Assembly (NCBI GenBank): GCA_051294375.1
Contig: CM119269.1
Span: forward strand, 15,077,918-15,141,917
DNA length: 64,000 bases
Direction of reading: 5' to 3'
Source of the DNA: Paraspadella gotoi
Taxonomy: Eukaryota; Animalia; Chaetognatha
The position numbers and the translations under genes were made by a program. The notes below the pieces were generated by a model, which was given only the letters and a program-made list of their open reading frames with translations, made no database searches and was not told the DNA's origin. Positions 59,250-62,728 of this stretch are shown one piece after another (position 1 is the stretch's first letter; the number at the start of each line of letters is the position of its first letter).

Positions 59250-61991
59250 ATGTCACGACTTTTCCTCCGCTTCGACGTGGGGACGCAGACCCTTAAATGT
59301 TCGGCCATCGAGGGCGAAACTGACTCATCGTCGAACGATTCGCCGTCAATTACGACGACGATCTCCCAGAGTTTCGAACAAAAGGTGTCTCGTAGTGAAT
59401 CGGCTTATAATACTAATATATGATATGTAGAAGTATTCTTAATGTGGGTTCATGTGATACTGAGATCTTTCAGGTGGCGTCCACTGCGTCAACGCGCCCT
59501 GGGGAGTCGAGGCGACGACGCCAACGCTGTTATGGGTGAAGTCGTTCGACTCGATTCTCGCACAAATGCGCGAGCGTAACTTCCGATTCGGCGACGTCGT
59601 AGGCGTCTCTTTTTCTGGCCAACAGCACGGAAGCGTCTATTGGCGCCAGAATGTCGACTACTTGCTGGGCGCAATGAATCCCCAACGAACGCTTTTTGAA
59701 GAGTTGACGGAAGCTTTCAGGTTTGGCGAGACTTATGCTCGTAGCTTCGAGCTCAACCAAGTAATGAGGACCAAAATGCCTATAGCGTGTCCGATTCTCC
59801 CATTTGGATGGATTCCTCAACGGGCGCCGAGTGTCGCGAGATTGAAGACGCCGTTTTTAAGGCCACTGGCCGGCATTTGGTCGCAGTCAGCGGTTCGCGG
59901 TTATTCGACGATTTACGGCGGCGCAACTGCGAAAAAAGTTTAAGAAAAACCCGAGAGCGATGGAGGCCACCGAAGCGGTGAGCCTCCGTCAGCAGCTTCG
60001 CTGCGCGCTGTTCGGCGGCGGCGTGGTCGCTATCGACGCCGCCGACGCTGCCGGCACCAACCTTGTCGATATGAGGACGTCGATATGGAGCGACGCCTGC
60101 TTAAAGGCGTGCGCTCCGGACGAGGCGGCTTCGGAGAGATTAAGAAAATGTTGAAACCAATCGTGCCTCAGATTCGATCGTCGGCACTGTCTCGAATTAT
60201 TTCGTCAAAAGGTTTGGCTTCAACCCACAGTGTCTCGTAGTGGCGGCCACCGCGGATAACCCTTCTTCGCTGGCGGGTATGCGGACACGGCCGGGCGATC
60301 TTGTCGTCTCCATGGGAACCAGCGACACCGTTCTTCGCCTGGCTGGACGAGCTGCCTTCGACCCACCGCCTTTTGCCTTTGTCCTCGCCAATCCCCTTTC
60401 GAGGTGACAGAGATAACTTAACAATTTTTATTGTCATAGAATTTCTCCAACCTATCTCAATGAAATTCAAGGGGCGCCTTCATGGGCATGTCCGTCTACA
60501 AGAACGGATCGCTGACGAGGGAGTCGGTGAGAGATTCTGTGTCGCCCTCTGCATCGCCATCTTGGGCCGAGTTCGATCGCCTCCTCGCTGAGTCGAAACC
60601 CGAAACGAAGGAAACCTCCCTTCTTTTTCACCCAAAGGGAAATCTGGCCCGAAGCTGAAGGATATTTCGTTTCGACGCAAAGGGTAGGACTCGTGTTACG
60701 TTGCATTTCTAATCTTCTACATTTTAGTCGGATCTGCTTATAAGCAGATTCCGACTCTATAATTCACTTTGTCGGTAAATAATTATTATCATATCAGAAC
60801 TCGAATTATGATAAAATAACAAAAAAAATTATGCCATCCGTCCGTTCCCACCTTAGCTATTAAACTCAAATTACTTGTGATTGGATGGATAGATTGGAAT
60901 AAAATTTTGTGTGTGGGTAGGAAATTATGTGATTGAGCTAGATTTAAATGGAAAAAACAAGTCACATTTTCTTTTTTTTTAGTTTTTTTACTTATATATA
61001 CTCATAATTTATTAAAAATTAAAATGAAATTTTGTGTGTGGGTAGAGAAATATTCAACTTCTAATATAAATTTTTGATGGAATCGTAGGGTGGAAAAGAG
61101 TTAAATTAGAAAACCAAAAGACATTGAATTTGAATATTTAAAAAGTTTCTTTCTCTCTATTTCTCTCCGACTGAGTTGATTGATGATTGATATATTTTTT
61201 AACATGTTGATTATATAAAATAATTTTATAGAAATCTGTTATGATTTATTATGTTATGATCTAGTTATGAATAGTTATGTTTCTCTCTCTCTTTATTTAT
61301 TTATAAATTTTTTTGTCACATTCATCGGACATCCAATCTGATTACCTGATTATCTGTAATTGCTTACCGCCAATTATTATCAGGCAGATCCGACATTGTT
61401 TGCTCAAACCTATCTTGCGTTTAATAAAATTCGGTTCTCTGCGATATCACGACCACGACACGAGGTTGCGTGCGCGTTGATCGAGGGTGATAACTGCTCA
61501 AGTCATCCTCCGAAATTAGTTATTAGTAAAAATTTAATTCAGGACAACTAATCGCGAAACGAATTCACCAGAAGAGAAATGGGATTCTCGTTTCGCAGAG
61601 GTAGAAAGATTCGCGTCCTCGCCACCGGCGGCGCCTCGGCGAATCCGGGCATCCTCCGTGTAAGTAAATACGAAGGTTTCTTGTTTCCAGTCTTCAAAAC
61701 CATTGAAAATCATGACCGCCACTTTTTCGCAGTTCTGTCTGACGTCATGATGCAGCGCGTTTTTCGTCCTCGACGTTCCTGACTCGGCGTCTCTGCCGCC
61801 GCCCTTCGCGCCAAACACGCGGTCGTGCAAGCGGCGGCGGGCGGCGTTGTCAACTTTCACGATGCCGTCGCCGAGACGGAATTTCGTTTGGCTGCGTCTC
61901 CTGATGCCGGCGCCGAGGCTGTCTATGCGCCGTTGCTGGAACGATATAGAAACTTGAAAAAAAGATCGTTGAAAAGAAAGTAAAAACATGA
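59250..61991 (+). CDS. XYLB: Xylulose kinase (FGGY family, eukaryotic XYLB type); several frameshifts as assembled
   Basis: Motifs in order: [98 protein letters not shown]. Indels are probably assembly errors; the region is flanked by gaps. Confidence 0.9.
60722..61420 (+). mobile_element. HINE/DINE-1-like element in XYLB intron
   Basis: 5' TTTTAGTCGGATCTGCTTATAAGCAGATTCCGAC; 3' GGCAGATCCGACATTGTTTGCTCAAAC. Interior is shared with the other copies. Confidence 0.75.
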
Positions 61992-62066
61992 TTTCGCTAT
62001 TGCACTATTTGTCTGGAATTTAGTTAATGTGACAAACTTTTTTATTTTATATTCGAGCTTTCAAAA

Positions 62067-62728
62067 ATGCCTTTGCCAAAGGCTTTGGCAACTGAAAAGT
62101 TCCGACTTTATAATCCACCTTTGGAAGAAGTTGGGGAAGTCTTTGCCTCCGGATGCGTATAACTTTCATGACGTAGAGGTCCGCGTAGTCACTTGTCCTG
62201 ACCTCTCGACTCCCCTTTCGGTTTGGCCGCGCCGGGTCTCTGTGGTGACGCCGCCTCGCGACGTCGGTGGTGTCGGCAATTTGATACCGGACGCCGAGAC
62301 CAGCGAAAACTTTCTCCTTCGAAAAAATCGCGTCAGCTGCGGAACTTAGCAATGGCGGCGCTGATCGGACCCGGTGCGCGGAGATTCTCGTTTTGTAGGT
62401 CTGTACTTTCAACTAGCAACTATAACCTGTTTGTTTACATCTACGACTTGAATACAACATAAAGGTACGAATGTTGAGATGATGGCCAATCTTCAGGATC
62501 CTTGGTCCAAACCACGTCGTGAATCGATCTCGTTTCTCCAAAGTCGGCGGAAACGATGAATGCGCGCTGGACGTATACCAGACGATGAACTTTGCTCTAA
62601 TGGCGAATCTGTTTCTGTCTAGAGGTGAATGGATTTTTTTTTTCTTACTTATATTAATTACTGTAAACATTTTCTTTCTATTACCGATCGCAGGCGAAAT
62701 CGGCCTCCTTTTACATTCGCCGACTGGG
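62067..62728 (+). CDS. C11orf54: C11orf54/PTD012 (DUF1907) homologue, 5' half; frameshifted as assembled, remainder not in window
   Basis: Exons ~62067-62398, 62465-62624 and 62694-62728 give FRLYNPPLEEVGEV, NFHDVEVRVVTCPDLS, DVGGVGNLIP, LIGPGA, GTNVEMMANL and CALDVYQTMNFALMANLFLSRG. These are colinear with human C11orf54 as I recall it (PSLEEL, NFADVQVSVVDCPDLT, EVGGVPYLLP, ILGAGAG, ALLANLFASEG). Confidence 0.88.

What the first reader, a model, noticed from the sequence alone, without database searches (positions are those of the whole stretch)
59250..62728. Two enzymes of the glucuronate-xylulose pathway (XYLB and C11orf54) packed head-to-tail ~80 bp apart
Seen: xylulokinase stops at 61983 or 61991 (depending on one indel) and the C11orf54 homologue starts at ATG 62067 on the same strand. 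Known: XYLB makes xylulose-5-P at the end of the glucuronate (uronic acid) pathway, and C11orf54 has been reported to be the beta-keto-L-gulonate decarboxylase that makes L-xylulose in the same pathway. The genes are unlinked in human. Inference: this is a metabolic gene pair or operon, which is rare in animals and would be independent genomic support for the C11orf54 function. The ORF track misses it because both genes are frameshifted here.
Basis: partly seen in the sequence, partly recalled or inferred. Interest (0 to 1): 0.88.

Follow-up and report, generated by a model that had tools for sequence, protein, structure and literature searches.

The report
Xylulose-pathway gene pair, possibly fused
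In this animal, two genes for enzymes of one sugar-breakdown route, xylulokinase and a relative of the human enzyme that makes L-xylulose, lie only 75 bases apart on one strand and both give spliced RNA; they are likely read from one promoter as an operon and may sometimes be spliced into one fused protein, but the pairing is known from this one species and could be chance.

Summary
The pair is real. A full-length xylulokinase (59250-61991) is followed after 75 bases by the 5' half of a C11orf54/DUF1907 gene (ATG 62067). DNA contigs of two studies bridge the gap, so it is no misjoin. The frameshifts are window errors; both genes give spliced RNA. The window is misassembled after 62703, so the catalytic half and whatever follows are unseen. 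Other gene gaps in the window are about 1-4.7 kb.

New lead: one RNA contig stops right before a GT (61980) and the next starts right after an AG (62057); removing these 78 bases would join both proteins in frame. No junction or spliced leader was seen, and both splice signals are atypical. Odds: operon 0.45, close but independent genes 0.28, fusion isoform 0.22.

Value is limited: the enzyme function was already proven in 2025, the two steps are not consecutive, and no relative could be examined. None of 35 long xylulokinases carries DUF1907. A 4,933-base RNA contig leaves about 3.9 kb unexplained. The scan noted DUF1907 beside dehydrogenases in other DNA before, not beside xylulokinase.

The parts
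59250..61991 (+). Xylulokinase (XYLB) gene, full length, ATG 59250, own stop TGA 61989-61991; frameshifts are errors of the window
   Evidence: RNA contigs of X9; frame at the end fixed by 28+221=249 letters of one contig
59385..59473 (+). XYLB intron, 89 bases, GT..AG
   Evidence: X9 record in two pieces 59063-59382 and 59472-59699; ends read with the cut moved by 2
60404..60471 (+). XYLB intron, 68 bases, GT..AG
   Evidence: joint in X9 only, not in three DNA runs (table 5)
60684..61427 (+). XYLB long intron holding high-copy repeats (3' end approximate, error-rich)
   Evidence: X9 joint 60683 to 61438 with 10 letters between; very high summed depth in all runs
61660..61732 (+). XYLB intron, 73 bases, GT..AG
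   Evidence: X9 joint from 61659 with 28 letters between
61980..62057 (+). 78-base AT-rich (73%) gap: begins GT, holds the XYLB stop, ends in a T-rich run and AG; intercistronic region or, less likely, an in-frame intron. No AATAAA; AGTAAA at 61979
   Evidence: bridged by DNA contigs of X1 and X7; no indel inferred from gap-letter sums
62058..62703 (+). 5' half (about 170 codons) of the C11orf54/DUF1907 gene, ATG 62067; introns 62399-62464 (66 bases) and 62625-62693 (69 bases in the window)
   Evidence: first 510 letters of a 4,933-base X9 contig; loose ends continue the frame past 62703
62704..64000 (.). Misassembled tail: copies of 57102-57326, 57536-57677 and 55244-55884 with N gaps; the true continuation of the gene is not in the window
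   Evidence: self-BLAST; X1 contig of 7,495 bases leaves the window at 62703 with 6,154 letters left, X7 contig likewise

Best explanation
Two intact genes, a xylulokinase and a C11orf54/DUF1907 relative predicted to decarboxylate beta-keto-L-gulonate, lie 75 bases apart on one strand and are likely transcribed together as a two-gene operon that is cut into two mRNAs. Shown: identities, adjacency, spliced RNA from both, errors of the window. Inferred: one promoter upstream of XYLB; the precursor is cleaved and polyadenylated in the gap for the first mRNA, and the T-rich run with the AG at 62056-62057, nine bases before the ATG, serves as trans-splice acceptor that gives the second mRNA its 5' end. 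The first enzyme would close and the second would open the pentose half of the glucuronate-xylulose route; whether selection for co-regulation put them together, or chance did, is open (I put about one in three on selection).
For: Same strand, 75 bases stop to ATG, against about 1.0-4.7 kb for five other gaps in the window: little room for a separate promoter (inference). Published operon gaps are of this size: cut-offs of 84 and 60 bases in tunicates, about 100-112 in Caenorhabditis (PMC7986045 passages), under 100 in Ciona (PMC2760879 passages). XYLB keeps its own stop and the second gene its own ATG. The RNA contig of the second gene begins at 62058, directly after an AG preceded by a T-rich run; contigs cannot show a true RNA start, so this is a weak hint from one study. 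In flatworms cis-splicing is strongly prevented at acceptors that resolve operons (PMC12582326 passages), which favours two products over a fusion.
Against: No spliced-leader letters hang on the contig at 62058 (table 7), and it does not include the A or G of the acceptor, which a leader ending in G would share (leader ends recalled, not from a call). It is not known that this organism trans-splices: its xylulokinase is a long branch (1.86) with no supported placement. GAG is an unusual acceptor here: the five acceptors printed for shown introns are CAG or AAG. The XYLB contig stops four codons before the stop, at a GT, in frame, which the operon model treats as chance (0.0005-0.001 for both ends together, post hoc). 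No relative was examined, so conservation is unknown.
Confidence: 0.45

Rival explanations
1. Two independent genes that happen to sit very close; the second has its own promoter inside the 3' end of XYLB, and sharing a pathway is coincidence.
For: No joint transcript or leader seen. The two enzymes are three steps apart, and XYLB does not co-evolve with CRYL1 or DCXR (PMC12337341 section 6). No DUF1907-like match within 101 xylulokinase loci from metagenomes and prokaryote genomes (best E 0.23), none of which is a known close relative. With hundreds of pathways and many genomes scanned, some same-pathway neighbours are expected by chance (inference).
Against: 75 bases must hold a 3' end and a promoter while other gaps in the window are 14 to 60 times longer. 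Both contig ends fall on splice dinucleotides. For XYLB alone, the chance that a direct neighbour is one of about five pathway partners is roughly 5 in 10,000 (my estimate, assuming 15-20 thousand genes).
Confidence: 0.28
2. The 78-base gap is an intron in at least part of the transcripts: splicing 61979 to 62058 would give one protein of about 850 residues, xylulokinase followed by the decarboxylase, alongside separate forms made by using the XYLB stop or the downstream acceptor.
For: The XYLB RNA contig ends at 61979 on a codon boundary with GT next; the other begins at 62058 after AG, three codons before the ATG and in the same frame with no stop. Length 78 and AT share 0.73 fit the other short introns of the two genes (66-89 bases, AT 0.62-0.74). 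Chance for random ends near the two termini 0.0005-0.001 (post hoc). At an internal XYLB acceptor a contig starts with exactly the one letter shared by upstream exon and intron end (table 7), so starts in this run can track splice branches; at 62058 no letter is shared, which fits an upstream exon ending in A (inference). The C-terminal Asp of C11orf54 is conserved and matters for activity, so a fusion at its N-terminus is the tolerated kind (inference); rotifers fuse DUF1907 to CRYL1 domains.
Against: No contig crosses the junction; a 30+30-letter junction record might be too short to be laid (shortest anchoring piece listed: 35 letters). The donor has A at -1 and no G at +5, whereas 5 of 6 donors printed have G at -1 and the sixth has the full consensus; the acceptor is GAG. 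The end of XYLB is 61% A, so internal oligo-dT priming or clipping of short tips could break the contig there. Own stop and own ATG are both kept. 0 of 35 xylulokinases of 684-2000 residues list PF08925, 0 of 25 long or odd ones rescanned.
Confidence: 0.22
3. The adjacency is an assembly misjoin, or the frameshifted genes are pseudogenes.
For: The window is error-rich, holds N gaps and duplicated blocks, and is misjoined from 62704 on.
Against: Contigs of two studies bridge the gap; DNA and RNA contigs restore the frames with the same letters and show spliced RNA for both genes.
Confidence: 0.03

Closest known systems
Human C11orf54 / BKGD, beta-keto-L-gulonate decarboxylase (EC 4.1.1.34), PMC12337341
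   Same: DUF1907 family match over the Pfam cut-off; only PDB match is 1xcr; same organism also has XYLB of that pathway.
   Different: Only the 5' half is in the window; catalytic residues unseen. In human the two genes are on different chromosomes (recalled). The paper's main text has no occurrence of 'operon' or 'synten'.
Rotifer DUF1907-CRYL1 (3HCDH) fusion proteins, PMC12337341 Fig. 2E
   Same: Physical linkage of DUF1907 to another enzyme of the same pathway in an invertebrate.
   Different: There the partner is the preceding enzyme and the fusion is in 28 proteins; here the partner is the last enzyme, three steps away, and a fusion is only a possibility.
Spliced-leader operons of nematodes, tunicates, flatworms and Hydra (PMC7986045, PMC2760879, PMC12582326, PMC3273482)
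   Same: Same-strand genes under about 100 bases apart, T-rich run and AG just before the downstream ATG.
   Different: Leader and polycistronic precursor not shown here; acceptor is GAG; the gap also reads as an in-frame intron.
Eukaryotic D-xylulokinase XYLB (FGGY family), PDB 4bc2
   Same: Full-length match in order, 36-43% identity to homologues.
   Different: Long branch; no close relative among 1.84 billion representatives (best 61.7 bits).

Membership tests
XYLB-type xylulokinase | Full-length similarity to eukaryotic xylulose kinases rather than other FGGY kinases | tested here: met
   4bc2 at E 2.3e-17, next family 9.8e-05; profile positions 5-535 of 538 covered; conserved blocks align
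XYLB-type xylulokinase | Phosphorylates D-xylulose | not testable with these tools
   inferred from homology
C11orf54 / BKGD (DUF1907) | PF08925 domain | tested here: met
   25.3 bits against cut-off 25 on one frame piece, 13.3 on a second; 1xcr only PDB match
C11orf54 / BKGD (DUF1907) | H217, R263, zinc ligands H266/H268/H278 and C-terminal D315 (PMC12337341 sections 6, 8) | not testable with these tools
   they lie beyond 62703, which the window lacks; only 30 further letters are visible as loose ends
Spliced-leader operon | Same-strand genes less than about 100 bases apart, tighter than the genome's norm | tested here: met
   75 bases against about 1.0-4.7 kb for five other gaps; only one window sampled
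Spliced-leader operon | Leader trans-spliced to the downstream mRNA | tested here: inconclusive
   contig starts right after AG but carries no loose letters; contigs only, one study
Spliced-leader operon | One promoter and a polycistronic precursor | not testable with these tools
   no raw reads offered
Fusion gene | In-frame GT..AG intron between the two coding regions | tested here: met
   geometry only: phase 0, no stop; signals atypical
Fusion gene | Transcript crossing the junction | tested here: inconclusive
Metabolic gene cluster (three or more pathway genes, conserved) | Further pathway genes nearby | tested here: inconclusive
   none upstream in 125 ORFs scanned; the true downstream DNA is not in the window
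Metabolic gene cluster (three or more pathway genes, conserved) | Linkage conserved in relatives | not testable with these tools
   no genome held; organisms B and C of the RNA study gave nothing laid; no close homologue found

The most novel reading that the evidence does not exclude
A natural xylulokinase-decarboxylase fusion made by alternative processing of an animal operon: the same 78 bases act as 3' end plus trans-splice acceptor in some transcripts and as an intron in others, giving both free enzymes and one bifunctional protein; the 3.9 kb of unseen RNA downstream may add further enzymes of the pathway, making a sugar-pathway cluster in an animal.
Probability: 0.2. Interest if true: 0.72.

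Novelty: new member of a known kind. Interest (0 to 1): 0.43.

Why it matters
As an operon-like pair it is a second, independent case (after the rotifer CRYL1 fusion) of the newly assigned decarboxylase being physically tied to a gene of its own pathway in an invertebrate. It adds little to the enzyme's function, which is already proven. If the in-frame splice is real it would catch the step between operon and gene fusion in one locus and give an undescribed domain architecture. One RT-PCR or one look at raw reads decides it. It also flags that this assembly's frameshifts and the sequence after 62703 are artefacts.

Tried and rejected
No whole genome held. No listed holder is on record as RNA; X9 is a guess, though its GT..AG joints absent from DNA runs show spliced RNA. 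No X9 contig covers 61980-62057 (bin depths equal the two flanking contigs alone): a hole proves nothing and is not used as evidence. Contig depths (about 69 and 216) are not used to rank the genes. X10 and X11 gave 0 records laid: no proof of absence. Word-index searches with single-frame pieces found nothing: weak. A DUF1907 piece found no relative in prokaryote genomes; PF08925 was not found in 5, 301, 401 and 301 genomes searched (the first listed handles overlap; controls did not ring), so no full-length DUF1907 seed could be had and DUF1907 fusions were not surveyed from that side. Two further frame pieces had no PDB match. The tree is the quick one, unfinished careful search, window row on a long branch: no lineage claimed. 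The protein atlas did not answer. Rfam: 0 matches. A weight-matrix score of the splice sites was not obtained; their comparison rests on the letters printed. One paper recalled on alternative operon processing in C. elegans was not held and is not used. Searches for prior print: (C11orf54 with XYLB: 2 papers, listing only for the second, which is on cancer methylation); on operons and fusion gave no description of this pair. Supplement of PMC12337341: two files searched, one passage; figures S12 and S14 are pictures and could bear on species with linked genes.

Full report
Setting. The window is animal DNA with GC-rich exons and short AT-rich introns; it holds a receptor tyrosine phosphatase with many FN3 repeats, a Ral-like GTPase, an astacin-ShK protease and a zinc-finger gene, all on the + strand. 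It has N gaps, duplicated blocks and stretches full of indels. No whole genome is held, and a tree of the xylulokinase leaves it on a long branch without supported kin, so I name no lineage.

Identity. Frame pieces of 59250-61991 match FGGY_N and human xylulose kinase (E 2.3e-17). A profile of 25 xylulokinases taken from fetched loci is covered in order from position 5 to 535 of 538. Downstream, 61984-62346 passes the Pfam cut-off for DUF1907 (25.3 bits) and 62483-62776 matches the next part weakly; the only solved structure matched is human C11orf54, 1xcr. Both identities stand.

Is the locus real? Nine public runs of organism A from three studies hold the stretch. I laid three DNA runs and the one presumed RNA run, then a narrower stretch with X9, X1 and two runs of other organisms. 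One X1 contig (61384-62703) and one X7 contig of another study (61692-62703) bridge the gap; X5 breaks at 62065-62067. DNA and RNA contigs agree on the letters the window lacks or has in excess, and these restore open frames. X9 contigs skip GT..AG introns in both genes that DNA contigs do not skip, so both give spliced RNA. Two missing letters in the last XYLB exon place its stop at 61989-61991, 75 bases before ATG 62067. At 62703 the DNA contigs leave the window and carry on the reading frame, while the window continues with copies of 57102-57326, 57536-57677 and 55244-55884. So the pair is real, but the second gene's catalytic half is missing by misassembly.

Is the spacing unusual? Five other same-strand stop-to-start gaps in the window are about 2.8, 1.2, 1.0, 1.6 and 4.7 kb (two of them involve a small unverified ORF whose ends are approximate). 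That is one window only. In animals with spliced leaders, gaps under about 100 bases mark operons and take in about a fifth of genes in Ciona (PMC2760879, passages; PMC7986045, passages; Hydra case PMC3273482, passages).

The gap itself. The XYLB RNA contig stops at 61979, four codons before the stop, on a codon boundary (249 letters after the previous exon), and the next two letters are GT. The DUF1907 contig starts at 62058, just after AG, three codons before the ATG in the same frame. The 78 bases between resemble the other short introns in length and AT share. Random ends near the two termini would do all this in 0.05-0.1% of cases (post hoc). Gap-letter sums over five DNA contigs imply that the window has no indel here. 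Against a true intron: the donor has A at -1 and no G at +5, unlike the six donors printed; the acceptor is GAG, unlike the five printed there, and about fifteen further introns read by eye also have G before the donor and no GAG; no record crosses the junction; the XYLB end is 61% A, which can break contigs; both own stop and own ATG are kept; and cis-splicing is strongly prevented at operon acceptors in flatworms (PMC12582326, passages). Logan contigs come from a simplified de Bruijn graph of 31-mers (PMC12424806, passages) and cannot show RNA ends, so all this is a hint from one study.

Other organisms. None of 35 xylulokinases of 684-2000 residues lists PF08925 (only the 7,991 best candidates were scored), nor do 25 long or odd ones rescanned. 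A full scan of 1.84 billion representatives gave 239 hits at E 0.001 and no close relative. No DUF1907-like match lay in 101 xylulokinase loci. None of these sets is known to include a relative, so conservation is untested.

What is known. [quoted passage not shown] The commentary PMC12435205 (part 1 of 2) adds nothing on linkage. Searches found no paper describing a XYLB-C11orf54 pair. Two earlier notes of this scan describe DUF1907 beside dehydrogenases in fungi and a bacterium; I did not test them.

Mechanism and odds. Most likely (0.45) a two-gene operon: one promoter, 3' end formation in the gap, and trans-splicing at the AG before the second ATG. Next (0.28) independent close neighbours. 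Then (0.22) an in-frame spliced fusion in at least some transcripts. Misjoin or pseudogenes 0.03. Whether the pathway explains the pairing is a separate question: about 5 in 10,000 for this gene by chance (my estimate), but over all pathways and genomes scanned such pairs will turn up, the steps are not consecutive, and no third pathway gene was found in 125 other ORFs.

Unexplained. The RNA contig that begins with DUF1907 is 4,933 bases; 510 lie on the window. A 316-residue protein needs about 950, which leaves about 3.9 kb: a long UTR, an unresolved next gene, an overlapping opposite transcript, or more fused domains (less likely, given the conserved terminal Asp). Its letters could not be read.

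Verdict. Observation confirmed, interpretation partly supported. A real, tight same-pathway pair in one animal, of a known kind, with a cheap test for a more unusual fusion. Interest 0.43.

Noticed in passing
window 1-9700 and 19300-35415: Receptor tyrosine phosphatase gene with an extremely long array of 261-base FN3 repeats (dozens of copies); many copies are indel-ridden, so the copy number may be inflated by assembly.
   Followed up: no
window 10471-17920 and 30000-37188: A 7.5-kb block present twice at 90% identity with 531 gaps; likely an assembly duplicate rather than a true duplication.
   Followed up: partly
window 39747-43487: Ral-like GTPase with what look like two alternative last exons (about 42777-42884 and 43381-43487), each ending in a CAAX-type motif (read by eye).
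   Followed up: no
window about 38245-38552: Small GC-rich stretch reading as an acidic then cysteine-rich peptide, no Pfam match; frame not verified.
   Followed up: no
window 44522-47035: Apparently intact astacin protease with several ShK domains.
   Followed up: no
window 58402-58907 and 47839-48220: AT-rich palindromic element just upstream of XYLB, with a second copy upstream of the zinc-finger gene; high-copy in the runs near 59000-59060. Also a 288-base direct repeat at 57702-57987 / 58110-58397 and a helix-turn-helix remnant at 56192-56407.
   Followed up: no
X9 record of 4,933 bases and X1 record of 7,495 bases, beyond window 62703: About 4.4 kb of RNA contig and 6.2 kb of DNA contig continue where the window is misassembled; content unknown.
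   Followed up: partly
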